This document shows positions 40,046 through 51,287 of a DNA stretch of 64,000 nucleotides, one piece after another (within the stretch, counting starts at the first letter, position 1; every line of letters starts with the position of its first letter). The notes under the pieces were generated by a model. It made no database searches and was not told the origin of the DNA. It worked only from the letters and a program-made list of their open reading frames with translations. Source of the stretch: Flavobacteriales bacterium (lineage in GTDB: Bacteria > Bacteroidota > Bacteroidia > Flavobacteriales_F > PHOS-HE28). Both the position numbers and the translations under genes were made by a program. The stretch is taken from positions 5,826 through 69,825 of the forward strand of contig DAOKZW010000002.1 in NCBI GenBank assembly GCA_035325445.1, written 5' to 3'.

Positions 40046-40318
40046 TCATTGTTCCCACTCCCCCAAATGCGCCCGCATCAGGCTCTTGAAGAGCTTGCCA
40101 TGGTTCGGGACGCGCAGGTGTAGCAGTTCATGCACGATCACATAGTCCTGGAACTTGAGGGGTTTATGCAGGAGTTCGCTATTGAAATTCAAGTGGCCTT
40201 TCGTGGAGCAGCTGGCCCACTTGTGGCGCATAGGGCGGATGCCCAGCCACACCACCTCCACACCGATCTTCTCCGACCAGTCACGGACGCGTTGCTTGAA
40301 GGCGGCCTTGGCGTCCAT
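40046..40318 (-). CDS. YgjP-like metal-dependent hydrolase (DUF45), unusually short (90 aa)
   Basis: HEXXH motif in YVIVHELLHLRVPNHG preceded by WASCSTKGHLNFNSELL, the conserved C-terminal half of DUF45. ATG shares one nucleotide with the hsdR stop at 40318. Missing about 100 N-terminal residues relative to typical family members. Confidence 0.6.
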   Translation of the reverse strand: MDAKAAFKQRVRDWSEKIGVEVVWLGIRPMRHKWASCSTKGHLNFNSELLHKPLKFQDYVIVHELLHLRVPNHGKLFKSLMRAHLGEWEQ

Positions 40319-43300
40319 CAGATGCGGTCTGCTTTCTCCAGCAACGTGAATAACTCATCCACCAGCCGCGCCACCAGTATTTCGTCGTCCACCTGGCCGT
40401 AAATGGCGAAGGTGACCTTGGAGCGCAGCTCGCGCAGTTCTTTCTCACTGGTCTTCCAGTGCGGGAAGGCCACGAAGGCGTCCTTGATCTTGCGGCTCAC
40501 CGTCTCGCTTTCGGGCACCTGGGCATCCAGCAGGGTGCGGTACACGAAGTAGGTAAGCCCATCGAAGCCCTTCTCGGCCTGCTCCCGTTTGCGGTCCTCA
40601 TTTTGTTGCACGAGGCGTAGCAGATCATCCAGCGCCTCTTTCGTATCGGACTGGCGGCTTTCGAAGCTCTCCTGCACCGCCTTGGCGCGTTCGGCCATGG
40701 CGATCAGGAAGGGGTCGTCGCTTTCGGACTCGGCCTTCTTCTCGATGCTCTTGACCAAGTTGATCACCTTGGTACCGTCACCCGCATTCTTCTGCTTGAT
40801 CAGCTCGATGGTGCGCTCGTTGATCTCCACCAGCTCCAGCGGCGCGTTCACGTTGTAGGTGCCCACGTGTTCCTGCACCAGGCTGTTCGTCTTGCGCTGG
40901 AACTCCCGGTCCACCTCCACACGCTTGGTGTAGGCCTTGCGCACCACGTCGTAGATGGCGCTCAGCGTGGCATAGGGCTCGATGTAGGGGCGCAGGAAGG
41001 CATCGGGGCTGATGATCTCATACAGCATCTCCACTTCCTTGTACGCCTTGAAGAACTCCTTGCGGCGTTCCGGGTCGCGGAAGTGCTCGATCAGCGTGTC
41101 CACGTCGCGGTCGTCGAAGCGGCCGCCCACCAGCGCCAGGTAGGCGGGTACCTTCTGCTCCATCTTGTTCTTGAACAGACCCTTCAGCAGGGCGATGTCC
41201 TTCACGATGGCATTGACCTCGTCACTATCAAAGGCCAGCGCTTTCTCCAACTTGTCGAAGATGCCCACGAAGTCCAGCACGAAGCCGTGGGGCTTCACCA
41301 TCTCGGCCTGCTCGTTCTCATACGGACGGTTCACCCGGGCGATGGCCTGCAGCAGTGTGTGGTCGCGCATGGGCTTGTCCAGGTACATGGCGTAAAGCAG
41401 CGGCGCATCGTAGCCGGTGAGCAGCTTCTCGGTGACGATGAGGATCTTGGGCTGCTGGTCCAGTTTGGTGAAGGCCTTGCGGATCTGCCGCTCCTTCTTC
41501 TCGTCCAGGTGGAATTCCTTCAGCGCGGCGCTGTCGTTGTTGTTGCCGGTGTACACTACGGCGCTGTACTCGGGCGGCAGGTACTTGTCCAGCGCGTGCT
41601 TGTACAGGGCGCAGGCCTCGCGGTCCACGCCTACGAGGAAGGCCTTGTAGCCGAGCGGCTCCACGTTCTCGGTGTAGTGCTTCGCCACGAACTCGGCCAC
41701 CTTGGGGATGCGCTCCCTGCCCTTCAGGAAGTTCTTCAGGTTCACGGCGCGGTCCAGCACCTTGTTCAGGTGCTCGATGTCCGCCAGGCCCTCGGCCTCG
41801 GCCAGCGAGAGGAACTCCTTGTCCAGCGTTTCGTGCGGCACCAGCAGCTCGTTCGGCGCCAGGTTGTAGTACAGCGGCAATGTGGTGCCGTCGCTGATGC
41901 TGTCGGCGATGCTGTACTTGTGCAGGTAGCCTTTGTCGTCCTCCCCGCCGAAGGTCTTGAAGGTGCCACGTCCGTAGGCGGTCTTGTCGATGGGTGTGCC
42001 GGTGAAGCCGATGTAACTCGCGTTCGGCAATCCGGCCATGAGGAAGTTGCCCAGGTCGCCGCCGGTGGTGCGGTGCGCCTCGTCGATCAGCACGTAGATG
42101 TTCTTCCGCGTGTTGATGTTTGCCGGCATGTCGCGGAACTTGTGCACCATGCACACGATGATGCCGCGGTAGTCGTCCTTCAGCAGCTTGTTCAGCCGGG
42201 CGATGCTCTCGGCGTGCTCGATGTTGCCCAGGCCCAGCGCCGCGAGGTTCTTCAGCATCTGGTCCTCCAGCTCGTTGCGGTCGATCATCAGCAGCACCGT
42301 GGGCTTGTCCGCCTCGGGGGCCTTGAAGAGCAGCTCGGCGGCCTTGATCATGGTGAAGGTCTTGCCGCTGCCCTGCGTGTGCCACACCAGCCCGCGCCGC
42401 CGTTGCGGGTCCAGCGCGCGGTGCACCACGCGCTCCACGGCCGTGGTCTGGTGCTGGCGCAGGATGTACTTGTTCAGCTCCTCATCCTTCTCGGCGAAGA
42501 CAATGAAGTCCTTCAGCAGGGCCAGCACCTGGGGGATGGCGCAGAAGCTTTTCACCTTGGCCTCCAGTCGGCCGGGGGTGTAGGATGGCGGACCTCCTGG
42601 TCCGCCCGAGATCCCGGTGCTATGCGGCGGACCGGGAGGTCCGCCTTCCGTCAATGCGTCCTTCTCGTAGAGCAGGTACTCACCCTCCTTCAGCCCGCTC
42701 TTCACCGGATTGTTGCGGATGTAATCACACACCTGCTCAAAGTGGTCCTCGTTGCGGATCAGCCGGTCCCAGTACTCGTCCATCCAAAGCGAACCGGTCT
42801 TACCCAGGCGCTTATTCACTTCACGTGCGCTGAAGCCCTTCCATGACTTCACGATCTCACCGATCGTGTGGCCGTTCAGCGGGCGGAACAGCACATGCAC
42901 GTGGTTCGGCATCACCACGTAGCTCACGACTTCATAGCGGTCGCCGTCGAAGTGAAGGATCGCATCACCAACAATGCGGGCCAACTCCGGCTTCCGGAAG
43001 GGGCACGAGCCTTTGCCGGCGTCCAGCCACTTGTCCATGCGGCGGCTGAAGCGGTCGAAATGCTCCAGTTCGATGGCTTCGGTCCACGGTTCGGGGTGTT
43101 CGCGCAACCACGCATCGCGCTCGGCTTTCCATTCATCCAAAACTTCACGTGGAAGAGAGTCGCCCATGCGCCACGTCACGGAGCAGTACACGCCGGGTTG
43201 GTGCCAATGCGGTACACGGTGCTCTTTCGGGTTGACGGAGGAGTACGGGTCGAAGAAGGGGCTTTCCGGGATGGCGGACATTCCTGGGACGGCGGACATT

Positions 43301-44091
43301 CCTGTCCGCCCAGTGCTCCGTGGCGGACTGGAAAGTCCGCCTTCCTCCCCCCGTAGGATTTTCCACTCGAAGATGTTGCGGTACACCGTATTCCAGGTCA
43401 CCCCGTACTTGAAGCCGATGGCATCGGTGGCGGTGAAGAGCTGCTGGGGCACCATTACCTCGGGCGTTTCGCGGTGGTAGCGCCGGATCTGGTCGATGCC
43501 CAGGGCGATGCCCTCGTCCTTGGTGGCGTTCTTGCACTCCACCACCAGCACGGGGATGCCGTTGATGAGGAAGACCACATCCTGCCGCGTGCTGTGGTGG
43601 CCGTTGTGCGTTACCCACTCCTCGGTGACCTCGTAGATATTCCTGTCGGATGGCGGACTTTCTTGTCCGCCCGAGACTCCGGCCACACCCGTGCTCACGC
43701 GCGGACTGGAAAGTCCGCGTTCCAAGACCGCACCGTAATCGATGAGCACCAGGTCGCGCTCGCGGTCCTCTTCGTGGTCGAAGAACTTGCCTTGGTTGCG
43801 CAGGTACTGGAGGAACTCGCGGTTGCCGTAGATGTCCGTGTGCAGGTGGCGCAAGCGGCCCGGCAGGGCACCGGGAGCCTCGGTGTAGCGCGGGTTGAAG
43901 CGCCGCACCTGCGCATCCAGCACCTCTTCGAAATAGAGGCTGGCACCCCTGGCCCGTTCACTGCCCGTAGCGGCGGCGTTGAAACCCCGGCGCCGCTCGG
44001 CGGTTTCGCGCGGCACCACGGCCCAGCCCACCTCCTTGGCGTAGGCCAGGATGCGCGCTTGAACGGTCTTGTGTTCGCCGGGGGTGGGCAT
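40318..44091 (-). CDS. hsdR: type I restriction enzyme R subunit (HsdR) carrying three in-frame REP insertions and an in-frame RayT-like transposase domain
   Basis: N-terminal PD-(D/E)xK nuclease (DVVFLINGIPVLVVECK), helicase motif I HTQGSGKTFTM, DEAH-type LIDEAHR, motif VI region, C-terminal helical domain. The 1257-aa ORF is continuous. About 290 extra residues (aa 251-510) plus a 25-aa insert at aa 126-150 are not HsdR-like. Confidence 0.85.
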   Translation of the reverse strand: MPTPGEHKTVQARILAYAKEVGWAVVPRETAERRRGFNAAATGSERARGASLYFEEVLDAQVRRFNPRYTEAPGALPGRLRHLHTDIYGNREFLQYLRNQGKFFDHEEDRERDLVLIDYGAVLERGLSSPRVSTGVAGVSGGQESPPSDRNIYEVTEEWVTHNGHHSTRQDVVFLINGIPVLVVECKNATKDEGIALGIDQIRRYHRETPEVMVPQQLFTATDAIGFKYGVTWNTVYRNIFEWKILRGEEGGLSSPPRSTGRTGMSAVPGMSAIPESPFFDPYSSVNPKEHRVPHWHQPGVYCSVTWRMGDSLPREVLDEWKAERDAWLREHPEPWTEAIELEHFDRFSRRMDKWLDAGKGSCPFRKPELARIVGDAILHFDGDRYEVVSYVVMPNHVHVLFRPLNGHTIGEIVKSWKGFSAREVNKRLGKTGSLWMDEYWDRLIRNEDHFEQVCDYIRNNPVKSGLKEGEYLLYEKDALTEGGPPGPPHSTGISGGPGGPPSYTPGRLEAKVKSFCAIPQVLALLKDFIVFAEKDEELNKYILRQHQTTAVERVVHRALDPQRRRGLVWHTQGSGKTFTMIKAAELLFKAPEADKPTVLLMIDRNELEDQMLKNLAALGLGNIEHAESIARLNKLLKDDYRGIIVCMVHKFRDMPANINTRKNIYVLIDEAHRTTGGDLGNFLMAGLPNASYIGFTGTPIDKTAYGRGTFKTFGGEDDKGYLHKYSIADSISDGTTLPLYYNLAPNELLVPHETLDKEFLSLAEAEGLADIEHLNKVLDRAVNLKNFLKGRERIPKVAEFVAKHYTENVEPLGYKAFLVGVDREACALYKHALDKYLPPEYSAVVYTGNNNDSAALKEFHLDEKKERQIRKAFTKLDQQPKILIVTEKLLTGYDAPLLYAMYLDKPMRDHTLLQAIARVNRPYENEQAEMVKPHGFVLDFVGIFDKLEKALAFDSDEVNAIVKDIALLKGLFKNKMEQKVPAYLALVGGRFDDRDVDTLIEHFRDPERRKEFFKAYKEVEMLYEIISPDAFLRPYIEPYATLSAIYDVVRKAYTKRVEVDREFQRKTNSLVQEHVGTYNVNAPLELVEINERTIELIKQKNAGDGTKVINLVKSIEKKAESESDDPFLIAMAERAKAVQESFESRQSDTKEALDDLLRLVQQNEDRKREQAEKGFDGLTYFVYRTLLDAQVPESETVSRKIKDAFVAFPHWKTSEKELRELRSKVTFAIYGQVDDEILVARLVDELFTLLEKADRI
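42587..42645. repeat. REP-like palindromic doublet (inside hsdR, in-frame)
   Basis: GGCGGACCTCCTGGTCCGCC ... GGCGGACCGGGAGGTCCGCC: two perfect 8-bp-stem hairpins 19 nt apart. Confidence 0.75.
42646..43260 (-). mobile_element. RayT / IS200-like Y1 HUH tyrosine transposase domain, in-frame inside hsdR, flanked by REP doublets
   Basis: Residues about 278-482 of the hsdR ORF. HUH motif VVMPNHVHVLF and catalytic-Tyr helix FEQVCDYIRNNPVKSGL. No homology to HsdR. Confidence 0.6.
43273..43341. repeat. REP-like palindromic element (inside hsdR, in-frame)
   Basis: GGCGGACATTCCTGGGAC GGCGGACATTCCTGTCCGCC cagtgctccgt GGCGGACTGGAAAGTCCGCC. Translates as SSPPRSTGRTGMSAVPGMSAIPESP. Confidence 0.75.
43652..43718. 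repeat. REP-like palindromic doublet (inside hsdR nuclease domain, in-frame)
   Basis: GGCGGACTTTCTTGTCCGCC ... GCGGACTGGAAAGTCCGC. Translates as LSSPRVSTGVAGVSGGQESPPSDR. Confidence 0.7.
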
Positions 44092-44094
44092 GGT

Positions 44095-46029
44095 TTATAC
44101 TGTCGGCCAATCTTCAGGTACCAGCTTAAGACCACCGCGCCAACGTTCGCGTATAGTGTCCTGGTACCAATTCTCCTGGAACTCGGCGTGCTCCGTCATG
44201 ATAACTTGAAGCCCCGGTGCCACTTCCTGAACAAGGTCATAGATCAGCTTGAACATCCTTTTCAAGTCCTCCCTATCATCGCCTTTTAGCTCAACCACGT
44301 TGTCTCTTGAAACATCTGGTGGGAAGTACACCTGTGAAGGCTGGTCCAGAAAAAGGAAATGAGGAACAGGACGACGTTGCATTGTAAACCACTTGTGAAG
44401 GGCAAGGTGGCCTATTAAATGATAACCTACCCAGTTCTCACCACTGCCCATCTTGTCCATTGTAATCGCTCCATTGGAAGTTGCCGCAAACACCGTGAGT
44501 TTGTTCACATTTAGGCGTAAGGGATACTTTGAATGTTCGAGCTCCAACCTCTTCGCCCAGATGGACATGTCTTCCGCCAGGATGGAGACGATTGATTCAA
44601 GCCGCTCCTTGATGTCCTCGTCCGACAACTTCTCCTCAAACTCTGCAACTTCAAGCTGCAGGAGCTTCGATTGTCTTTCCAGGTCTAGTGTATTGGGTAA
44701 GTCGGGCAAACTTTCCAAGTACAGACTGATGCGACCAAGGATCAGAGCCCGGAGCGATACATCGTCGCGTAATTGCTTGAGCTTCTCATCAGCCTGAACA
44801 ACCGCGGCCATCGACTCTCGATTCTTACGCAAACTCTCATTCAAGCCGCTAATCTTCGATTGAGTCTCTGCGATAGACTTCTCTACCTGAGGTAGGTTAC
44901 GTTGTACTCTATTCAGTTGGTCAGCCACCTTAGAAATGGAGTCAGTGATGCTCGTGGCGATGGGCAGGTTAGACGTATCCGCCAAACCTTGCTCACACAA
45001 CGGACAGACGTGCGCTTCACCCTGGCTCAATAACCCTATGCTCACCAGCCTTGCCTTCTGTTCCTTAGCCTCTGAAGTGAATCCTACTTCAGCATCCGCA
45101 ATTGATTGAATCGCCGAAAGTTGTGCTTGGAGGTGGCCTCGCTCCGCCAAGAGTCTCTCGCGTTCAGATGCTAGCTTCTCGTACTCGCCGGCATCCGTGC
45201 CCTTGGCGTCTAGCACCGACACACTGGCCTGGCTTGCTTTATGCAGATGTGCAACGAGTTCGTTCCAGTCAGAAGTATCCGGGGCTTGGCTCAAGCCAGC
45301 CTCCCGAGCTTGCGCTAGCAGCGAAGCGGCTTTGCCGATTCCTTCGCCGCGAATTGACCGTAGCTCGTTCAGCTTCCTCTCAATCGAGCGGAGTTCACCC
45401 TTTAACATTCGAAGCCGCTCTTGATTTGCGACATAATCATCGCTCACTGCGCCTAAAAAGAAGGGCAGTGTATCCTTGAGGGCTTGTGCCTTGAAGGAGT
45501 CGTTCGCCTTGTAGAAGAGCTGCTCCGGTTGATTGATCACATACTGTGGTTGAAAACACAGCATTAAAGCGTGGCGCACGGTAGCGGCAACAGGCAATCG
45601 TGTGTGGCCCGCATCAGGAACGTGAATATTCTCCTTTACACCAGTCCATCCTGTCACTATTGAGATTAGGCCCTCCTTGTTTGTATTCGAGATTAGGTCT
45701 TCGAACGCCGGGATAGCGATCTCTCGGCCAATTGCAACGTAACACTCCTCCGAGTAGTCTCCGTCCACCCGCGGCGCTTTGCGGGCAATGAAGGCTTCCC
45801 CGTCATCTAGCTTGAGCCGCAAACCGAACCATGAAACGGCGGAGCGAATAATACCATAAGGCACCTTGCATTTGCCACTACCCATGCAGAAGTCAACAAT
45901 TGATATCAGTGCTGACTTGCCAGTCTTTGAGGCGCCCGTTATGACGTTTACCTCGCCAGGAGTGAATGGGAGCTTACGAACTCGTCCATCATGCGAGTAA
46001 AGCACCAAGTCGTGTATTTGAATGCTCAT
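44095..46029 (-). CDS. SMC/Rad50-like ABC ATPase with coiled coil and CxxC zinc hook (DUF3732-like; candidate ABC-3C ATPase)
   Basis: Walker A VITGASKTGKSAL at N-terminus. About 300-aa heptad-rich middle with CPLCEQ hook. C-terminal signature-like MGSGENW, Walker B/D-loop HFLFLDQPSQ, H-loop IMTEHA. Start set at the Met of MSIQIHDL (CAT 46027-46029), overlapping the upstream stop by 4 nt. Confidence 0.7.
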   Translation of the reverse strand: MSIQIHDLVLYSHDGRVRKLPFTPGEVNVITGASKTGKSALISIVDFCMGSGKCKVPYGIIRSAVSWFGLRLKLDDGEAFIARKAPRVDGDYSEECYVAIGREIAIPAFEDLISNTNKEGLISIVTGWTGVKENIHVPDAGHTRLPVAATVRHALMLCFQPQYVINQPEQLFYKANDSFKAQALKDTLPFFLGAVSDDYVANQERLRMLKGELRSIERKLNELRSIRGEGIGKAASLLAQAREAGLSQAPDTSDWNELVAHLHKASQASVSVLDAKGTDAGEYEKLASERERLLAERGHLQAQLSAIQSIADAEVGFTSEAKEQKARLVSIGLLSQGEAHVCPLCEQGLADTSNLPIATSITDSISKVADQLNRVQRNLPQVEKSIAETQSKISGLNESLRKNRESMAAVVQADEKLKQLRDDVSLRALILGRISLYLESLPDLPNTLDLERQSKLLQLEVAEFEEKLSDEDIKERLESIVSILAEDMSIWAKRLELEHSKYPLRLNVNKLTVFAATSNGAITMDKMGSGENWVGYHLIGHLALHKWFTMQRRPVPHFLFLDQPSQVYFPPDVSRDNVVELKGDDREDLKRMFKLIYDLVQEVAPGLQVIMTEHAEFQENWYQDTIRERWRGGLKLVPEDWPTV

Positions 46030-46538
46030 GGTCTCATCCCCAGAAGGGCATATGTTGTTTCTACTGCACCGGCTCGCATGAGCCACCGACCAAGGAACTC
46101 CGCCTTCTTCATACACTCAGCCACCTCATCGGACATATCGCCACTGGCTCGATTGAACACCACCCTATACTTCGCGTTGGGCACAATCACCTCACCTTCG
46201 ATTTGAAATAGACCACTGTTCGATCCGTAGAGGAGCGCTTCCTTCGCGTAAGGAACCAGCTGCAGAGTTCTGAAGGGCAATCCTGCAACCAGCAATGGGT
46301 TGCTCTCTACCCAGGTCGGTATGGATGATCTTACGTTGGTTGGAAGCGACTCTCGCGTCTTCTGATGCAAGATTAGTGGGAGCAAGAGAAAGGCCTCCAA
46401 GTAGTGCAATGCGGTACGTTTTCCCTTAGGATTCTTAAGCGCATCCGTCGCCGCATGCCAGATGATGAAGGCACAGAACCCAGGGTTGAGCAGGAACCGC
46501 TCTTCATGAGGCCGTTGATTCCAAGGCTGCAACGGCAT
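46026..46538 (-). CDS. small hypothetical protein; candidate middle component of a tripartite ABC-3C-like module
   Basis: 170 aa, no recognisable motif. Wedged between the upstream stop (2-nt gap) and the downstream ATPase start (4-nt overlap). Confidence 0.45.
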   Translation of the reverse strand: MPLQPWNQRPHEERFLLNPGFCAFIIWHAATDALKNPKGKRTALHYLEAFLLLPLILHQKTRESLPTNVRSSIPTWVESNPLLVAGLPFRTLQLVPYAKEALLYGSNSGLFQIEGEVIVPNAKYRVVFNRASGDMSDEVAECMKKAEFLGRWLMRAGAVETTYALLGMRP

Positions 46539-46540
46539 AG

Positions 46541-47740
46541 TCAGCTAAGGATTGAAGCCAAGCGGTCCTTGAACTCTGGATGCCAACCGATCCTCATGTC
46601 GTTCGCCAAAATGTGCAATGAGCCACGGGTAATGAACCCATCATGCACGCCGGGTCTTATCCGAGAGTTTTGATTGCCCTGTTCCGCCCATGCCAGCAGA
46701 TCGCTAGCCGCACGCTTCTTCACTTCTTCAGTGGCGCCTGTACCCAGGGTGTCCTCCATCTGGTGGAATACAGCCTCCCATTCCTCAATCAAGGCCCGCT
46801 CATATACGGTAAGGTCGGCTACAAAGAGCAGGTCTTGGCGCAGCCACCTTGAACGCTGTTCAAAGGCTCTGAAATAGTCACGTATTGCTGCACGCAAACG
46901 CTTTGAATGAGAAGTTGCAAGTTCAACTTGCTTAACAAAGGGCAAGCTCTTGTGCGCCTCCGCGGTATCCGTATCAAGTTCAAAGTTCAGCAGGTCATCA
47001 GCAACAGGCAATGAGTCCTGGCGGAATCGATCGCGAACTTCAGTCACCTGCGCTTCAATTTCCTCGGACAGTATTCTACTACTTAACGAAGTGTCCAAGA
47101 GTTGCTGGATAACACGCCTAAACCACCAGCCTTCCAGATACTCAACGAACGTTTCACGATTGTTCTTCCCTGCAGCATAGTGCACTTCTGCCGCAAGAAG
47201 AGAATTGACGCCTTCGATGTCAGGCGCTTGGTCAATGACAAGTACTCGCTCAAGTAGCTCACGGCACTGGCTTGGTTTCCATGCCTTATAGGCGGCGTAT
47301 GCGCTCTCGTTCGTCGCGCTCTCCGAAGTTTGAGCCACGGCCAAAAGTCCCTTCATCGCGCCCTCAACATCTCTGTCTTTCGTTTTCAGCTTTCCTGCAA
47401 TAGAAGCGGCCTGTGCTGTCTCAGAGGTCACGAGGAAGAGCATCGTGTCCTTAGCTAGCTTTCCAGCATTAGTTAGCTCAATCCAAATACGCAGCGTTTT
47501 CCAAAGATCACTGGAGCTGTTCATAAGATTTCCCTTACGGTTCAAATGATGCTTGGTCTGTAGCAGATCCGTTGGCGTGCCAAGCTTCTCGAAAGCAACG
47601 TCATCGAGTGTCTCCACTGAGACACTGAATATTTCGCTGTTCTTCAACCGCTGAAGGCTCCACAACAGTGCACACCGAACCTGGTATAGGTAGCCCAATG
47701 CAGATTCTGCGGCTGAGAATTGCGCTGTTGTATCGGTCAT
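46541..47740 (-). CDS. hypothetical protein; candidate effector with N-terminal restriction-endonuclease-like (Cap4/DUF4297-type) region
   Basis: N-terminus ESALGYLYQVRCALLWSL ... VSVETLDDVAFEK ... LLQTKHH resembles the G-Y-x-Y-Q start and D / (E,Q)xK pattern of PD-(D/E)xK-type Cap4 nuclease domains. ATG overlaps the hsdS stop (ATGA). Confidence 0.45.
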   Translation of the reverse strand: MTDTTAQFSAAESALGYLYQVRCALLWSLQRLKNSEIFSVSVETLDDVAFEKLGTPTDLLQTKHHLNRKGNLMNSSSDLWKTLRIWIELTNAGKLAKDTMLFLVTSETAQAASIAGKLKTKDRDVEGAMKGLLAVAQTSESATNESAYAAYKAWKPSQCRELLERVLVIDQAPDIEGVNSLLAAEVHYAAGKNNRETFVEYLEGWWFRRVIQQLLDTSLSSRILSEEIEAQVTEVRDRFRQDSLPVADDLLNFELDTDTAEAHKSLPFVKQVELATSHSKRLRAAIRDYFRAFEQRSRWLRQDLLFVADLTVYERALIEEWEAVFHQMEDTLGTGATEEVKKRAASDLLAWAEQGNQNSRIRPGVHDGFITRGSLHILANDMRIGWHPEFKDRLASILS

Positions 47741-49017
47741 GCTCGTACTGATGTGTAGTACGTGACTTCTTTAGGAACCCTCACCTTCCCCGTCATCAGC
47801 TCATGAAGCAGGGTGCGGAAGAGGTCTTGGAGTGACGTGAGTTTCGTTCGGTGGTGTTCGCCCTTGCGTTCAATCGCAAGCAAAGCATCTGTGATGCCAT
47901 TCTGCACATCAAGCCCAGGAAGTGGTAGTGGCATACTCCTCACATCGGCCACATTGAGATGGGCTACCGTGAGGCCACTGGCGATCGACTTCATGTGCTT
48001 GCTCAGTACCGGACTGTAGAAGCTGTAGACGAGGAACTCTGGACTAAGCCTAGATCGGTCTGTGCGTATCAGCATGGTTCGTTGCCCCAAGCTGAGTCGC
48101 ATGCCTTCCGGAATGACGCATGCTTCACCTACCGGAGCCTCGCGACTGAACAGAACATCACCTGGTTCGGGCACGGCGCGCCGAACACGATCACGATACT
48201 GCTCCTCGCTCGTGAAGAAGGCTGGTTCCGGCACGAAACGACCATCGCGGATGTTGAAGTTCCGGGCGACGCGTACCCCAGTGGTCAGGAACTTCGGCGT
48301 GGTATGCGGGCAATCGATGACCAGTTCACACACTGACTGCAAAGGCACCACCTCCCAACTCTCCGGCACCAACCCGATCTCGGTCTCCTTCTGGGCTTCG
48401 CCGCGCAGCCCTTCGGTGAAGAGCTTTTGCATCAGGGCCTGCTTCAGCTCGGTGGTGGTGCGGATCAGGCGCTCCTGCTGTTCGATGGCCGATTGCACCG
48501 TGCTGAGCACTTGGGCGATGCGCTGCTGTTCGGCAAGCGGTGGCAGTGGGAGTTCAGACCCGAACACGTCGGATTCACGCACCGCCGGATATCCTGCGCC
48601 ACGTTCCAATCCTGCCATACGTGCTATGAAGCCATCCGTAAGGAGGAATGAGTAGAGGTACCGGGGATCAACCTTGCTCCGGTCGCTCCGAAGCACGCAA
48701 TAGCCTGTGCTAGCGATCTGGCCATCCAGCTTCTCCGGTACTAGCGCCACACGCCTAAGCGTAGGACGGACAGTTGCGAAGAGCACATCGTCCCGGCGTA
48801 TCTCTTTCCGCGCACGGCTCGGCGCATCTTTCCCTACTAGAGAAGCTGACTCTGTGATCTTGAACGATTCATTGGATACGCTGGAAACATCCACATACGC
48901 GAAGCGCTCATGAGGTGCTTTGCGCGGGTCCCGTTGCTTCGCCTTGAGCACTAGGTTCCCGATGCGCTCGCGGCGCCAACCTTGGGGCAAGTCGTATGGA
49001 AGTTCATCCTCCATCAT
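47737..49017 (-). CDS. hsdS: type I restriction-modification specificity subunit HsdS
   Basis: Two target-recognition domains separated by the conserved central helix LPPLAEQQRIAQVL and the C-terminal helix LQDLFRTLLHELMTGKVRV. Start overlaps the hsdM stop (ATGA). Confidence 0.85.
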   Translation of the reverse strand: MMEDELPYDLPQGWRRERIGNLVLKAKQRDPRKAPHERFAYVDVSSVSNESFKITESASLVGKDAPSRARKEIRRDDVLFATVRPTLRRVALVPEKLDGQIASTGYCVLRSDRSKVDPRYLYSFLLTDGFIARMAGLERGAGYPAVRESDVFGSELPLPPLAEQQRIAQVLSTVQSAIEQQERLIRTTTELKQALMQKLFTEGLRGEAQKETEIGLVPESWEVVPLQSVCELVIDCPHTTPKFLTTGVRVARNFNIRDGRFVPEPAFFTSEEQYRDRVRRAVPEPGDVLFSREAPVGEACVIPEGMRLSLGQRTMLIRTDRSRLSPEFLVYSFYSPVLSKHMKSIASGLTVAHLNVADVRSMPLPLPGLDVQNGITDALLAIERKGEHHRTKLTSLQDLFRTLLHELMTGKVRVPKEVTYYTSVRA

Positions 49018-51041
49018 GCCAACTGCTTCAAGATCTTCTTCAGCGCCGCATCCGTTTCCCGCGCCTCGGCCTCAATGGCCTCCAGTTCCTGCACCAGCTC
49101 GGGGATGGGCCGGTAGCTGGTGGCCTCGCCGGTGTGGATGTAGCGGCTGGGCGAGAGGTTGTAGTCGCTCAGTTCGGCCAGTGGCACAATGCGGCTGAGC
49201 TTCTCCTCCTCCTTCCACCCGAGCATCACGTCCGCAATGCGGTCAATGTGCTCGGGCGCCAGGAAGTTCTTGGGCTTGCCCTTCTCGAAGAGCTGGCCGG
49301 CGTTCACCAGCAGCACCTTGCCCTGGCGGGCTGCCGGCTTGGCCCTGCGCAGGAAGAGCACGATGCCCGGCGCGGTGGTGTTGTAGAAGAGGTTGTCCGG
49401 CAGGTAGAGCACGCTCTCCACCAGGTCGTTATCCACGAACCACTTGCGTACCTCGCGCTCCTTGCTGTGGCCATCGTTGCCGCTGCCGCGGCTGGCGGCG
49501 CCGGTATCCAGCACCACGGCGGCGCGGCCGGTCGGCTTCAGGCTAGAGAAGATGTGCTGCGCCCAGCCCCAGTCCGCACTGGCCTTTCCGGGGAAGCCCG
49601 CGCCGGTGGGGAAGCGGTCCAGCTCGTCGTTGGCGTAATCGGCCTCGGTGAACCAATCCTGGTTCCACATGGGGTTGGCCACCACGCGGTCGAAGGTCTT
49701 CAGCCGCCCACGCTCGCGGAACTTGGGGTTCTTGAAGGTGTCGCCGATCTCGATCTGGCCCTGCATGTCATGGATGATCATGTTCATGTTGGCCATGGCC
49801 CAGGTCTCGGCGATGTATTCCTGGCCGTAGAGGCGGAGGGGCGCGTACTTCGGCATGGCAGGCATTCCTGGGCCGGCGGACATTCCTGGGCCGGCGGACA
49901 TTCCTGGGTCGGCGGACATTCCTGTCCGCCCGGTACCGTGTGGCGGACTGAAAAGTCCGCCTACCGAATATGTGGTGCCGCCATCCTTCATGCGCGCCTC
50001 CAATGCGATCTCGCATTTGATCAGCAGGCCGCCGCTGCCGCAGCAGGGGTCGTACACCTCCATGCCGGGCTCGCATTCCAGCACGCGGGCCATCACCTCG
50101 CCCACTTCGCCGGGGGTGTAGAACTCGCCCGCGCTCTGCCCGCCGCCCTCGGCGAACTTGCGGATGAGGTACTCGTAGCTCTTGCCGATGATGTCGGCCT
50201 CCACATCGTTGAGGCCAAGGCGCTTGGTGCTGATGGCCTCGATGAGGTTGCTGAGGCGGTCGTCGGCCAGGTCGCGCTGGCCGTGGGTAGTGGCGTTGAA
50301 GTCCACGCGGTCGATGATGCCCTGCAGCAGCGGGTTGGCCTTGGCCACTTCGCGCAGGTGGGTGGTGAGCTGCTCGCCGATCTTGTCGCTGAGGGTGCGG
50401 ACCACGCTCCACACGGGCTGCTCGGGGTCGGCGGGTTCCAGCGGCAGGTAGAAGCGCACGAGCTTCCTATCGGCTTTTACCAGCCGGAAGGCCTTGGCGC
50501 GGGATCCCACCTCGGCGGCGATGCGGTCCAGCTCATCATCGAACACGTCGCACAGCCGCTTGGTGAAGATGAGCGGCAGGATGTAGTCCTTGTATTTGGG
50601 GGCATCCTTGGCGCCCCGGATGGAGCAGGCGGCATCCCAGATCCAGGTCTCGAGGGATTTGTCGGGGGTGGGCTTGGCAGCCTTCTTCGGGCGGCCGGTC
50701 TTGGTTTTTTCGGCGGGGTCGGGGTCGGTCTTCGCGGACCGGGAGGTCCGCGGGCTCGGTTTGTGGGCGACTTCCTTATCCCCGTCCTGCGCGGACCGGG
50801 AGGTCCGCGGACCGGAGGCTTCCTTTTCCGCGGTCTGCGAGGACCGCGGACCGAGTTTGATGCTGCCGCCTCGCCCGCGCCCGAGGGCGATGGCGCCTTC
50901 GGCGAGGAGCTCGGCTTTTAAGCTTTCGTAGGTGGGCTCGTCCACATCCAGCAGCTCGCGGGCCTTTCCATTACCCAAGCTGGGCGTTTCAGCCAGTAGG
51001 GCGAGCAGGGCTTCCTTGCGGTTGGTATTCTCTTCGGTCAT
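49014..51041 (-). CDS. hsdM: type I restriction-modification N6-adenine DNA methyltransferase HsdM carrying two in-frame REP insertions
   Basis: Motif I VYDPCCGSGGLLIK, FYTPGEVGEVMARVL, motif IV variant VVANPMWNQ, C-terminal HsdM helical region. Continuous 675-aa ORF. Inserts are GGLFSPPHGTGRTGMSADPGMSAGPGMSAGPGMPAMP and the N-terminal region EKEASGPRTSRSAQ ... SPRTSRSAKTDPDP. Confidence 0.85.
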   Translation of the reverse strand: MTEENTNRKEALLALLAETPSLGNGKARELLDVDEPTYESLKAELLAEGAIALGRGRGGSIKLGPRSSQTAEKEASGPRTSRSAQDGDKEVAHKPSPRTSRSAKTDPDPAEKTKTGRPKKAAKPTPDKSLETWIWDAACSIRGAKDAPKYKDYILPLIFTKRLCDVFDDELDRIAAEVGSRAKAFRLVKADRKLVRFYLPLEPADPEQPVWSVVRTLSDKIGEQLTTHLREVAKANPLLQGIIDRVDFNATTHGQRDLADDRLSNLIEAISTKRLGLNDVEADIIGKSYEYLIRKFAEGGGQSAGEFYTPGEVGEVMARVLECEPGMEVYDPCCGSGGLLIKCEIALEARMKDGGTTYSVGGLFSPPHGTGRTGMSADPGMSAGPGMSAGPGMPAMPKYAPLRLYGQEYIAETWAMANMNMIIHDMQGQIEIGDTFKNPKFRERGRLKTFDRVVANPMWNQDWFTEADYANDELDRFPTGAGFPGKASADWGWAQHIFSSLKPTGRAAVVLDTGAASRGSGNDGHSKEREVRKWFVDNDLVESVLYLPDNLFYNTTAPGIVLFLRRAKPAARQGKVLLVNAGQLFEKGKPKNFLAPEHIDRIADVMLGWKEEEKLSRIVPLAELSDYNLSPSRYIHTGEATSYRPIPELVQELEAIEAEARETDAALKKILKQLA
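49855..49961. repeat. REP-like element (inside hsdM, in-frame): 3.5 x 18-bp GGCGGACATTCCTGGGCC units plus two hairpins
   Basis: ggcggacattcctgggcc x3, GGCGGACATTCCTGTCCGCC, GGCGGACTGAAAAGTCCGCC. Same family as the hsdR copies. Confidence 0.8.
50734..50846. repeat. REP-like triple hairpin (inside hsdM 5' region, in-frame)
   Basis: GCGGACCGGGAGGTCCGC at 50734-50751 and 50791-50808, GCGGTCTGCGAGGACCGC at 50829-50846. Confidence 0.7.
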
Positions 51042-51235
51042 TCAGCCGATGAAAATAGGGGAATCGGGGTAAACGTGCGGAGTTCGGAGGCAGTTGGCAG
51101 CGGGCAATCGTCGGGGCCCGCAAACCACAAACCAACCTTCTCGCCGAACACAACTGACAGCCCTGCCTGATCAAAGATCGCTTCGGCCGCAAGGCCGGCC
51201 TCGCGATGACGTGCCGCAGGCGCGAGGGAGTGCCG

Positions 51236-51280
51236 CCCTACGAACTACGCCCTACGAACTACGAACTCCGAACCCCGAAC
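51236..51280. repeat. short tandem repeat (CCCTACGAACTACG / CGAACTMCG units) upstream of the hsdM operon
   Basis: ccctacgaactacg ccctacgaactacgaactccgaaccccgaac read directly. Lies between the rluD stop (51288) and the hsdM start (51041). Confidence 0.6.
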
Positions 51281-51287
51281 TAAAAAC

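What the first reader, a model, noticed from the sequence alone, without database searches (positions are those of the whole stretch)
42587..43718. Three REP-like palindromic doublets inserted in-frame in hsdR, each translated as a Gly/Pro/Ser-rich peptide
Hairpins with 7-8-bp GGCGGAC(C/T/A)...GTCCGCC stems occur as doublets at 42587-42645, 43273-43341 and 43652-43718. Every insert length preserves the reading frame and is stop-free. The translations (LSSPRVSTGVAGVSGGQESPPSDR, SSPPRSTGRTGMSAVPGMSAIPESP, GGPPGPPHSTGISGGPGGPP) are flexible-loop-like. This parallels Rickettsia palindromic elements that insert in-frame into protein-coding genes. That the insertions stay in frame in a large multidomain enzyme suggests they are tolerated, or that insertions breaking the ORF are selected against.
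Basis: partly seen in the sequence, partly recalled or inferred. Interest (0 to 1): 0.7.

Follow-up and report, generated by a model that had tools for sequence, protein, structure and literature searches.

The report
Transposase-plus-palindromes cassette inside a restriction gene
The palindromic doublets in this restriction-enzyme gene are real, but two of them are the ends of a whole REP-associated transposase (RAYT) cassette read in frame as an internal domain of HsdR, an arrangement found in many bacterial phyla that I could not find described in the literature I searched.

Summary
GGCGGAC-N6-GTCCGCC hairpins occur as doublets at the stated coordinates: 10 copies in the window against about 1 expected. 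They lie in frame in a 1257-aa hsdR ORF.

The 600 bp between doublets 1 and 2 encode a complete REP-associated tyrosine transposase (RAYT) with HUH and Tyr motifs intact. It has no start or stop of its own and shares the hsdR reading frame. So doublets 1 and 2 are the two ends of a REPtron sitting in the linker between the nuclease and motor domains. Doublet 3, and further copies in hsdM, are solo REPINs.

At least 71 diverged HsdR homologues carry the same cassette at the same site. Sources name Verrucomicrobia, Chlorobium and Wenzhouxiangella; Flavobacteriales MAGs carry it too. Cassette-free alleles reach 97% core identity with cassette-bearing ones.

Both hsdR and the RAYT are under purifying selection, with dN/dS about 0.1-0.3. 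The REP-coded peptides drift, yet the hairpin stems stay intact.

These hairpins appear only in hsdR and hsdM, and only in operons that carry the RAYT.

Related RAYTs are embedded in frame in type IIG restriction enzymes, LeuRS and a DinG-like helicase.

In-frame REPs are already known. An in-frame REPtron appears to be undescribed.

The parts
40318..44091 (-). hsdR, one 1257-aa ORF: type I restriction R subunit carrying the inserts
   Evidence: TIGR00348 hsdR scores 433.5 bits against a cutoff of 284.55. HSDR_N, SWI2_SNF2/ResIII and T1R_D3-like domains are all found. The identical protein sits on contigs from three independent samples.
42583..43345 (-). The whole in-frame REPtron cassette (REPIN, RAYT, REPIN) in the linker between the nuclease and motor domains, aa about 250-503
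   Evidence: The cassette is absent from the 973-aa homologues, which have a 4-aa linker (HEEV or similar) at this point. It is present at the same site in 71 of the 121 sequences compared.
42583..42649 (.). REPIN doublet 1, on the C-terminal side of the RAYT; encodes GGPPGPPHSTGISGGPGGPPS
   Evidence: The 24-nt arms are 92% complementary (pair I4). It folds at -29.2 kcal/mol, z = -7.1.
42658..43239 (-). RAYT core (REP-associated tyrosine transposase), aa 285-478 of HsdR. HUH motif H397-V-H399 is at 42895-42903 and the catalytic Tyr457 at 42721-42723
   Evidence: Pfam Y1_Tnp gives 8.1e-10 and NCBIfam REP_Tyr_transpos 7.3e-21. The best PDB sequence match is 4ER8 TnpA-REP at E = 1.9e-6, with HUH and DYIxxNPVK aligned. 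Foldseek also ranks 4ER8 first. dN/dS is 0.05-0.13. H397, H399 and Y457 are invariant in 50 fusions.
43264..43345 (.). REPIN doublet 2, on the N-terminal side of the RAYT, including an 18-nt tandem half copy; encodes GGLSSPPRSTGRTGMSAVPGMSAIP
   Evidence: Located. The tandem repeat spans 43264-43304. Fold z = -4.8.
43648..43723 (.). Solo REPIN doublet 3, inside the HSDR_N nuclease domain (aa about 124-149)
   Evidence: Located (pair I2); fold z = -3.9. It is polymorphic among close relatives: present in the window, L005 and L006, and absent in L004, L008 and L007.
49014..51041 (-). hsdM of the same operon, which also carries REP inserts in frame
   Evidence: ORF. It matches PADLOC MTase_I at 9e-163.
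49863..49965 (.). REPIN doublet 4 in hsdM, with an 18-nt x 3.4 tandem expansion; encodes GGLFSPPHGTGRTGMSADPGMSAGPGMSAGPGMPAMP
   Evidence: Located. L005 has an insert at the same site; the RAYT-less operon L007 has none.
50733..50849 (.). Two single hairpins CGCGGACCGGGAGGTCCGCG plus one degenerate copy in the variable N-terminal region of hsdM, read in a different frame (PRTSRSA)
   Evidence: (family D7).

Best explanation
A REPtron has been inserted in frame into the flexible linker between the PD-(D/E)xK nuclease domain and the motor domain of HsdR. A REPtron is a RAYT (Y1/HUH tyrosine transposase) gene flanked by its cognate REP hairpin doublets.

Shown:
- The cassette has no start or stop codon of its own, so the only evident route to the RAYT is translation as an internal domain of HsdR.
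- The flanking REPINs are translated into disordered Gly/Pro/Ser tethers.
- Both the host enzyme and the RAYT remain under purifying selection with catalytic residues intact.
- The hairpin stems are conserved at the DNA level while the peptides they encode drift.
- REP copies occur only in hsdR and hsdM, and only in operons that carry the RAYT.
- Cassette-bearing and cassette-free hsdR alleles coexist and exchange segments by homologous recombination.

Inferred:
- The embedded RAYT still binds, cuts and joins single-stranded REP hairpins, as E. coli TnpA-REP does. This would make it the agent that seeds, maintains and homogenises the extra REPINs in hsdR and hsdM.
- The operon is a compact unit that moves horizontally and has almost no intergenic DNA. 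The only REP copies that can travel with it are therefore those inside conserved genes.
- Of those, only copies whose length is a multiple of three and which sit in permissive loops or linkers survive selection. That filter, not a frame-aware insertion mechanism, explains why every insert is in frame.
- The cassette behaves mainly as a tolerated selfish passenger that gains expression and horizontal transport from the restriction-modification operon.
For: Identity of the RAYT. Pfam, NCBIfam, PDB sequence search and fold search all point to the TnpA-REP family. HUH and Tyr are invariant in 50 fusions.

One continuous ORF. The frame is unbroken in the window and in 71 diverged homologues, 74-96% identical in the core. 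No Met is conserved ahead of the RAYT in close relatives.

Selection:
- RAYT dN/dS 0.05-0.13.
- HsdR parts 0.07-0.34.
- REP-coded peptides 0.4-1.1, with one outlier near 2.

Hairpins are constrained as DNA. Of the 32 hairpins (up to 2 mismatches) in the five hsdR genes, 21 have perfect 7+7 stems. This holds even though dS in the adjacent RAYT is 0.5-1.2. Base pair 8 is Watson-Crick in 41 of 45 copies in eight RM loci, with three pair types: C-G, A-T and T-A.

REPs track the RAYT. 40 hairpins lie in 23 kb of hsdR and hsdM. None lie in the 111 kb of flanks, cargo genes and hsdS in the same loci. Two RAYT-less operons have none in 44 kb.

The REP-RAYT pairing is genuine. A standalone RAYT 48% identical, with its own ATG and TAA, is flanked by the same GGCGGACATTCCTGTCCGCC hairpins in a Chromatiales MAG.

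The inserts look tolerated. AF2 gives pLDDT 26-41 to the REP-coded segments and 60-87 to the RAYT core.

Mosaicism.
- P0005 versus P0065: about 5 mismatches over roughly 720 aa from residue 537 to the C-terminus, but 54 in the N-terminal domain.
- The RAYT tree and the HsdR core tree disagree.
- The residue just after the cassette (GR versus GK) is linked to insert state.

No chance effect in stop-freeness. The doublets are open in 4-6 of 6 frames.
Against: - No activity data exist. That the RAYT is catalytically active inside HsdR, or that this HsdR restricts DNA, rests on conservation alone.
- NCBIfam REP_Tyr_transpos scores 74.6 bits, just under its whole-protein cutoff of 80.
- Only about 134 kb of genomic context in five loci could be inspected, so REP copies elsewhere in this genome cannot be excluded. 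At least one genome with a fusion, the Opitutales contig holding P0076, does have a REPIN doublet elsewhere (locus L114).
- The strong, long-term purifying selection on the RAYT and its recurrent association with restriction enzymes would also fit a benefit to the host.
- The trees are neighbour-joining trees without support values.
Confidence: 0.72

Rival explanations
1. One reading: three independent REP/RPE-like palindromic doublets each inserted separately into hsdR and were kept because they happened to be in frame. No transposase is involved locally.
For: Doublet 3 and the hsdM copies behave this way. They are solo REPINs that are present or absent among close relatives. In-frame REPs in functional genes are documented elsewhere (PMC3733652).
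Against: Doublets 1 and 2 flank a complete RAYT in the same frame. The three pieces are inherited together as one cassette at one site in 71 homologues. REPs are found only in operons with the RAYT.
Confidence: 0.08
2. Exaptation: the RAYT domain has become a working part of the restriction enzyme. It might act as a second, hairpin- or ssDNA-directed nuclease, or as a DNA-anchoring module. The flanking REPs would be leftovers that now serve as linkers.
For: - RAYT dN/dS is 0.05-0.13, as low as or lower than in HsdR.
- Its catalytic residues are invariant.
- The architecture is widespread across phyla.
- Related RAYTs are repeatedly embedded in other restriction enzymes of the Eco57I/MmeI type.
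Against: - Cassette-free HsdR alleles up to 96.8% identical in the core are common and equally conserved.
- The same RAYT clade is also embedded in LeuRS and a DinG-like helicase.
- The flanking hairpins are maintained as DNA structures with compensatory changes. Mere linkers would not need that.
- Intact RAYT ORFs outlive decayed hsdR genes.
Confidence: 0.17
3. hsdR is a dead gene disrupted by an IS200-like insertion, and the open frame is a coincidence.
For: Decayed versions do exist: in L128, L129 and L130 hsdR is split or truncated around the RAYT.
Against: - The 1257-codon ORF is intact here and in 71 diverged homologues.
- dN/dS of the hsdR parts is 0.07-0.34 in comparisons between cassette-bearing genes.
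- D171, E185, K187, the Walker A motif and DEAH are invariant.
- The IS200 model scores 24.5 bits against a cutoff of 55.
Confidence: 0.02
4. The cassette is removed after transcription or translation, as an intron, IStron or intein would be, so the mature HsdR is normal.
For: The pattern resembles inteins in three ways: a sporadic distribution, a fixed site and an in-frame position in a large conserved enzyme.
Against: - No Hint/intein domain or other such family is found.
- No Rfam intron family is found; the only hits are sub-threshold hairpin matches.
- The boundaries vary in length and residue between homologues and lack conserved Cys/Ser/Thr or His-Asn junction residues.
- The RAYT is under amino-acid-level selection in the host frame and has no start or stop of its own.
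Confidence: 0.02

Closest known systems
REPtrons / RAYT-REPIN systems (TnpA-REP with flanking REPs; Nunvar 2010, Bertels & Rainey 2011, Ton-Hoang 2012 PMC3333891, Messing 2012 PMC3479197, Quentin 2018 PMC6006769)
   Same: A Y1/HUH transposase with HUH and Tyr motifs, whose closest solved structure is 4ER8. It is flanked on both sides by cognate GC-rich REP hairpins arranged as inverted doublets. A standalone relative with the same REPs exists (L018). The motif signature NHVH / WQ / YIRNNP resembles TnpA-Y1 subclass 2.7 in Table 1 of PMC6006769; this is a lead and was not tested.
   Different: - The RAYT is not a separate gene. It has no start or stop and is read as an internal domain of HsdR.
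- In this lineage the REPs are intragenic and confined to the carrier operon, not spread through extragenic DNA.
- The cassette moves horizontally with a restriction-modification operon and recombines between alleles, whereas RAYTs are usually described as vertically inherited.
- Quentin et al. discarded long proteins as 'gene fusions or annotation errors'.
Intragenic in-frame REPs: Rickettsia palindromic elements (RPE) and 'REP-decorated' proteins (Di Nocera 2013, PMC3733652)
   Same: Short palindromic repeats, often as dimers encoding 20-30 aa, sit in frame in functional genes, often genes of DNA metabolism. They are thought to be tolerated in loops and linkers, with disruptive insertions purged.
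   Different: Those reports describe repeats only. Here the transposase itself is in frame too. The solo copies are restricted to the genes next to it, rather than scattered among many genes of a REP-rich genome. That paper does not mention restriction genes.
Inteins and other in-frame selfish insertions in conserved enzymes
   Same: It works in a similar way. The element is optional and sporadically distributed, sits at a fixed site of a large nucleic-acid enzyme, keeps the host frame open, and encodes its own nuclease-type enzyme. It is also found in an essential gene (LeuRS).
   Different: There is no Hint domain and there are no splice-junction residues. The boundaries vary. The insert most likely stays in the mature protein. 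The enzyme is a Y1 HUH transposase, not a homing endonuclease.
IS200/IS605 insertion sequences and IStrons
   Same: A Y1 transposase fold, and subterminal hairpins at both ends of the coding sequence.
   Different: The IS200 model scores below its cutoff (24.5 against 55 bits). There is only one copy in the window. No TnpB is present and no intron RNA is detected.

Membership tests
RAYT / TnpA-REP (REP-associated tyrosine transposase) | HUH metal-binding motif and catalytic Tyr in a Y-x-x-x-NP helix | tested here: met
   H397-V-H399 and Y457 (DYIRNNPV) align with HMH and DYIYINPV of 4ER8. They are invariant in 50 fusions.
RAYT / TnpA-REP (REP-associated tyrosine transposase) | Sequence or fold similarity to characterised TnpA-REP above family thresholds | tested here: inconclusive
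   Pfam Y1_Tnp scores 39.3 bits, above its cutoff of 23. PDB 4ER8 is the best match by sequence (E = 1.9e-6) and by fold (probability 1.0, TM 0.57 on the target). NCBIfam REP_Tyr_transpos scores 74.6 bits, below its cutoff of 80.
RAYT / TnpA-REP (REP-associated tyrosine transposase) | Gene flanked by cognate REP hairpins (REPtron arrangement) | tested here: met
   REPIN doublets lie at 42583-42649 and 43264-43345, on either side of the core. The same holds in all relatives examined and in the standalone relative L018.
RAYT / TnpA-REP (REP-associated tyrosine transposase) | Free-standing gene of about 150-320 aa | tested here: not met
   It has no start or stop of its own and is embedded at aa 285-478 of a 1257-aa HsdR.
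RAYT / TnpA-REP (REP-associated tyrosine transposase) | Binds and cleaves single-stranded REP DNA | not testable with these tools
   This needs biochemistry.
REP / REPIN repeats | Short GC-rich imperfect palindromes, often as inverted doublets able to form one long hairpin | tested here: met
   Stems of 7-8 bp with 4-6 nt loops. Doublets fold with z = -3.9 to -7.1. Base pair 8 shows compensatory variation.
REP / REPIN repeats | High copy number, predominantly extragenic | tested here: not met
   In this lineage 40 of 40 copies lie inside hsdR or hsdM, with none in 111 kb of surrounding DNA. In other genomes the same doublet type is mostly intergenic.
REP / REPIN repeats | Conserved 5' tetranucleotide tag (GTAG or CGTC) | tested here: inconclusive
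   GTAGGAT precedes the hairpin at 42580. The other copies have GTCGGAT, CGGGAT or GGAA, and only GGA(T/A) is shared.
In-frame palindromic insertions (RPE-like) | Insert in frame, stop-free, within a gene that stays under purifying selection; absent from close homologues | tested here: met
In-frame palindromic insertions (RPE-like) | Insert located in a surface loop or linker | tested here: inconclusive
   The AF2 model has low overall confidence (pLDDT 56.9). The REP-coded segments score 26-41 and sit where insert-less homologues have 4-5-residue connectors.
HsdR, type I restriction R subunit | HSDR_N PD-(D/E)xK nuclease, SF2 motor and C-terminal helical domain; family HMM above cutoff | tested here: met
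   TIGR00348 scores 433.5 against 284.55. D171, E185-x-K187, GSGKT and DEAH are invariant. The gene sits in an operon with hsdM and hsdS.
Intein | Hint domain with conserved N- and C-terminal splice-junction residues | tested here: not met
   There is no Hint or intein match. The boundaries are variable and lack conserved junction residues.
IS200/IS605 insertion sequence | TnpA-IS200 equivalog; multicopy element | tested here: not met
   NF033573 scores 24.5 bits against a cutoff of 55. The window holds a single copy.

The most novel reading that the evidence does not exclude
In-frame REPtrons may be a distinct lifestyle of RAYT transposases, intein-like but without splicing. The RAYT would be made and would act only as an internal domain of a host enzyme: HsdR, Eco57I/MmeI-type restriction enzymes, LeuRS or a DinG-like helicase.

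In the restriction enzymes it might be mechanistically coupled to the DNA translocase. Supercoiling driven by the motor would extrude REP cruciforms, which the tethered HUH domain would then cut and rejoin. That would make restriction enzymes an engine of REPIN mobility, or would give them a second, hairpin-directed nuclease.
Probability: 0.2. Interest if true: 0.9.

Novelty: new variant of a known kind. Interest (0 to 1): 0.75.

Why it matters
RAYTs are usually presented as single-copy, free-standing, vertically inherited 'domesticated' transposases, and REPs as extragenic elements. Here the transposase and its repeats live inside the reading frame of a horizontally mobile restriction-modification operon. 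Relatives do the same in other restriction enzymes and in an essential tRNA synthetase.

This has several consequences:
- It offers a route for REP-RAYT systems to spread between phyla.
- It explains a class of 'over-long' HsdR proteins. It may also explain why some ~200-330-aa RAYT proteins are annotated as 'type I restriction enzyme R subunit', although at least some of those are probably fragments of fusions on short contigs.
- It is a natural example of a 250-aa domain insertion tolerated in a molecular motor.
- It provides natural near-isogenic allele pairs with and without the cassette. These make the long-open question of what RAYTs do directly testable.

Tried and rejected
- **Wrong loop length.** A first pattern search used a 7-nt loop and found only a chance match. 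The loop is 6 nt.
- **Introns or known RNAs.** An Rfam search of the insert region found no intron or other known RNA family, only sub-threshold miRNA-like hairpin matches.
- **Inteins.** No intein or Hint domain was found.
- **'Standalone' close relatives.** Three RAYT hits that looked free-standing (P0123, P0139, P0132) turned out to be ORFs inside split or truncated hsdR genes. They cannot serve as evidence that the cassette leaves hsdR intact.
- **Long ORFs across doublets in GC-rich genomes.** My test for 'long ORF spanning the doublet' gave false positives. The translations were Arg/Pro/Ala-rich nonsense. Only L074 and L091 look like true in-frame cases outside hsdR.
- **Structure model.** The AF2 model of aa 1-620 has low overall confidence (pLDDT 56.9, pTM 0.34). 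I used it only for per-segment confidence and for the fold of the RAYT core.
- **REP scars in cassette-free alleles.** I looked for remnants that would indicate excision and found none. All empty sites carry a uniform 4-aa linker. Precise excision therefore cannot be told apart from allelic recombination.
- **Literature.** Searches for RAYT or IS200 together with HsdR, restriction or fusion, for REPtron and for PF01797 found no description of the architecture. The library covers open-access papers only.

Full report
**1. The observation**

The region lies in a single 1257-codon ORF on the minus strand, 40318-44091. Perfect GGCGGAC-N6-GTCCGCC hairpins sit at 42587, 42626, 43291, 43322 and 43652. 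A CGCGGAC...GTCCGCG variant sits at 43700.

With up to two mismatches the 64-kb window holds 10 copies against 1.05 expected, and none of 100 shuffles reaches 10. In doublets 1-3 the two hairpins are mutually complementary. As single strands these doublets fold into one long REPIN-type hairpin, with z-scores of -3.9 to -7.1.

Being stop-free means little, because each doublet is open in 4-6 of its six frames. The extra GGCGGAC at 43273 is a half copy produced by an 18-nt tandem duplication.

**2.

The 600 bp between doublets 1 and 2 are not hsdR sequence. Residues about 285-478 match the following:
- Pfam Y1_Tnp (8e-10) and NCBIfam REP_Tyr_transpos (7e-21; 74.6 bits, just under the cutoff of 80).
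- The E. coli RAYT structure 4ER8 as the best PDB sequence match, E = 1.9e-6. The HUH motif (H397-V-H399) and the tyrosine helix (D-Y457-IRNNPV) are aligned.
- 4ER8 again as the top fold match for the AF2 model, followed by IS200/IS605 TnpA structures.

The segment has no start or stop codon of its own. Doublets 1 and 2 are therefore the two ends of a REPtron (REPIN, RAYT, REPIN). It lies in frame between the HSDR_N nuclease domain and the SWI2/SNF2 motor. Doublet 3 is a solo REPIN inside the nuclease domain.

The same operon's hsdM (49014-51041) carries a fourth doublet with an 18-nt x 3.4 expansion, plus two or three single hairpins. All are in frame.

**3. It is a family, not an accident**

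- Of the 120 best HsdR homologues plus the window's own protein, 71 carry the RAYT at exactly this site. They are 1061-1353 aa long, and their HsdR cores are 74-96% identical to the window's. Sources name Wenzhouxiangella, Verrucomicrobia, Chlorobium and Pseudomonadota. The window's nearest named relatives are Flavobacteriales MAGs.
- The other 50 are mostly 972-980-aa proteins with a uniform four-residue linker (HEEV or similar) at the site and no REP remnant.
- Presence and absence are interspersed on the HsdR core tree. P0005 and P0065 are 96.8% identical, P0008 and P0045 96.6%, and P0012 and P0106 94.3%. For 17 of 116 sequences the nearest neighbour has the other insert state.
- The pattern is mosaic. 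P0005 and P0065 are almost identical from residue 537 to the C-terminus but differ at 54 positions in the N-terminal domain. The RAYT tree disagrees with the core tree. The residue just after the cassette (GR versus GK) is linked to insert state.

I read this as two old allele classes that exchange segments by homologous recombination. RAYT-mediated precise excision or insertion cannot be excluded.

The identical window protein occurs on contigs from three independent samples, so it is not an assembly artefact.

**4. Selection**

Codon comparisons used the window and four cassette-bearing relatives, plus one cassette-free relative.

| Region | dN/dS | dS |
|---|---|---|
| HsdR parts | 0.07-0.34 | 0.14-0.62 |
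| RAYT core | 0.05-0.13 | 0.54-1.18 |
| REP-coded peptides | 0.4-1.1, one outlier near 2 | - |

The nuclease residues D171, E185 and K187, the Walker A motif and DEAH are invariant. So are 47 RAYT positions, including H397, H399 and Y457. The gene is not a pseudogene, and the RAYT is constrained as a protein in the host frame.

The REP-coded peptides drift, yet the hairpins do not. Of 32 hairpins in the five hsdR genes, 21 have perfect 7+7 stems. In eight RM loci, base pair 8 is Watson-Crick in 41 of 45 copies, with three pair types. The constraint therefore acts on the nucleic-acid structure. That is expected if the RAYT still uses these hairpins.

AF2 gives pLDDT 26-41 to the REP-coded segments and 60-87 to the RAYT core. 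This fits folded domains joined by disordered tethers.

**5. Where the REPs are**

- In the window and four related loci, all 40 hairpins lie in hsdR or hsdM (23 kb). None lie in the 111 kb of chromosomal flanks, hsdS or the defence cargo. Two RAYT-less operons have none in 44 kb.
- Solo copies vary among close relatives. Doublet 3 is present in three and absent in three, and the hsdM inserts differ in copy number.
They span Planctomycetota, Acidobacteriota, Chloroflexota, Bacteroidota, Firmicutes, Proteobacteria and others.
- In those genomes the doublets are overwhelmingly in short open stretches, that is, intergenic. Only three loci are hsdR-RAYT, and about two are genuine in-frame insertions in other genes.
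- A Chromatiales MAG has a classic standalone REPtron. Its 221-aa RAYT is 48% identical, has its own ATG and TAA, and is flanked by the same GGCGGACATTCCTGTCCGCC hairpins.

The REP type therefore belongs to this RAYT clade and is normally extragenic. The intragenic, operon-restricted distribution is special to the embedded version.

**6. Most likely mechanism**

Shown:
- An in-frame REPtron in an interdomain linker.
- No evident way to make the RAYT other than as part of HsdR.
- Both partners under selection.
- Hairpins conserved as DNA.
- REPs co-occurring with the RAYT.
- Allelic recombination.

Inferred:
- The embedded RAYT is active on REP hairpins, like TnpA-REP, and seeds or homogenises copies nearby.
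- The operon's genes overlap or abut, and its hsdS and cargo are frequently swapped. The cargo here is Lamassu at 52% GC against 63% for the surroundings. So only copies inside the conserved hsdM and hsdR genes travel with the unit.
- Only copies that keep the frame and sit at permissive sites survive.
- The cassette is mainly a tolerated selfish passenger that gains expression and horizontal transport.

The main rival is that the RAYT has become useful to the restriction enzyme. It is not excluded. Against it stand the abundance of equally conserved cassette-free alleles, the maintained hairpins, the intact RAYT ORFs in decayed hsdR genes, and the same kind of insertion in non-defence genes.

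**7. Beyond hsdR**

I ran an exhaustive phmmer search of the RAYT core against 1.84 billion cluster representatives. It gave 13,344 hits at E <= 1e-3. Of the best 150, 49 are at least 450 aa long, and 30 have at least 120 aa of other protein on both sides.

Pfam identifies these hosts:
- Eco57I/MmeI-type type IIG/IIL restriction-modification enzymes (12 of the 17 proteins scanned).
- Leucyl-tRNA synthetase (three of the 17 scanned; two further hits share the same flanking LeuRS sequence).
- A DinG/XPD-like helicase.

Most embedded RAYTs inspected are flanked on both sides by similar short peptides, and the peptide type differs between hosts. In the LeuRS locus L131 these correspond to 29-nt inverted repeats, each holding a small hairpin. 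In-frame REPtrons therefore look like a general habit of this RAYT clade.

**8. Comparison with what is known**

REPtrons, RAYTs and REPINs are well described (PMC3333891, PMC3479197, PMC5581495, PMC6006769, PMC8266576). In-frame intragenic REPs are also known: Rickettsia RPEs, and the 'REP-decorated' proteins of Di Nocera 2013, PMC3733652.

I found no description of a RAYT read in frame inside a host enzyme. Quentin et al. 2018 explicitly discarded long proteins as 'gene fusions or annotation errors'. Searches combining RAYT, IS200, HUH or PF01797 with HsdR, restriction or fusion returned nothing relevant. The library is limited to open-access papers.

I classify the feature as a new variant of a known kind.

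**9. Verdict**

- It misses the central feature, a complete RAYT cassette embedded in frame and shared by a large, cross-phylum family of HsdR proteins.
- Interest is 0.75.

Noticed in passing
P0250, P0253, P0261 (locus L131:3001-6219), P0247, P0345: Leucyl-tRNA synthetase, an essential gene, carries a related RAYT in frame after the editing domain. The flanking LeuRS sequence is the same in several diverged proteins, which suggests one shared site. In L131 the insert is bounded by 29-nt inverted repeats (4189-4217 and 4843-4871), each holding a small hairpin.
   Followed up: partly
P0244, P0257, P0262, P0271, P0296, P0312, P0332, P0338, P0343, P0344, P0361, P0387; P0269: Related RAYT domains are embedded at various positions in Eco57I/MmeI-type type IIG/IIL restriction-modification enzymes and in a DinG/XPD-like helicase. 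Most are flanked on both sides by similar repeat-coded peptides. Of the best 150 cluster representatives, 30 have at least 120 aa of host protein on both sides.
   Followed up: partly
window 44095-47740 (-): A Lamassu defence system sits between hsdS and hsdR: LmuA 46541-47740, LmuC 46026-46538, LmuB 44095-46116. Its GC is about 0.52 against 0.63 for the surroundings. Relatives carry other cargo at this position, including CBASS-like, Thoeris-like and OLD/UvrD-type genes. The slot is a variable cargo site in this type I operon family.
   Followed up: partly
loci L009-L127 (genome-contig scan): REPIN doublets with the identical GGCGGAC/GTCCGCC stem occur in more than 100 species genomes across many phyla. 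These include low-GC Firmicutes, Bacteroides/Porphyromonas and a Pasteurellaceae isolate. That is an unusually broad distribution for one REP stem.
   Followed up: partly
L128:4001-5542, L129:5178-8916, L130:3230-4780: Here hsdR is split or truncated around the cassette, yet the RAYT persists as an intact ORF of 194-344 aa. The transposase seems to outlive its host gene.
   Followed up: partly
proteins P0124-P0232: Many ~200-350-aa proteins with only a Y1_Tnp domain are named 'type I restriction enzyme R subunit' by JGI. This may be annotation transfer from HsdR-RAYT fusions, though several lie on very short contigs and may be fragments of fusions.
   Followed up: no
window 51234-51282: A heptamer tandem repeat (CTACGAA x 6.4, with a 14-nt period overlaid) lies in the short spacer between the upstream pseudouridine-synthase-like gene and hsdM. 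It could be a slippage-prone tract near the operon's promoter.
   Followed up: no
window 40046-40318 (-): A small YgjP-like (PF01863) ORF overlaps the hsdR stop codon. A gene of this family follows hsdR in every related operon examined, with or without the RAYT. It is 90 aa here and 107-121 aa in relatives.
   Followed up: no
L074:6839-6904; L091:3545-3603: These are two genuine in-frame insertions of the same REPIN type in unrelated genes. One is in a 47%-GC Bacteroides ORF (...RRGGPVCPPDGSWNSVFGRTHGSAPT...). The other is in a TPR protein of a Vicinamibacterales MAG (RRGGPSGPPDPADRRGGPSGPPD).
   Followed up: partly
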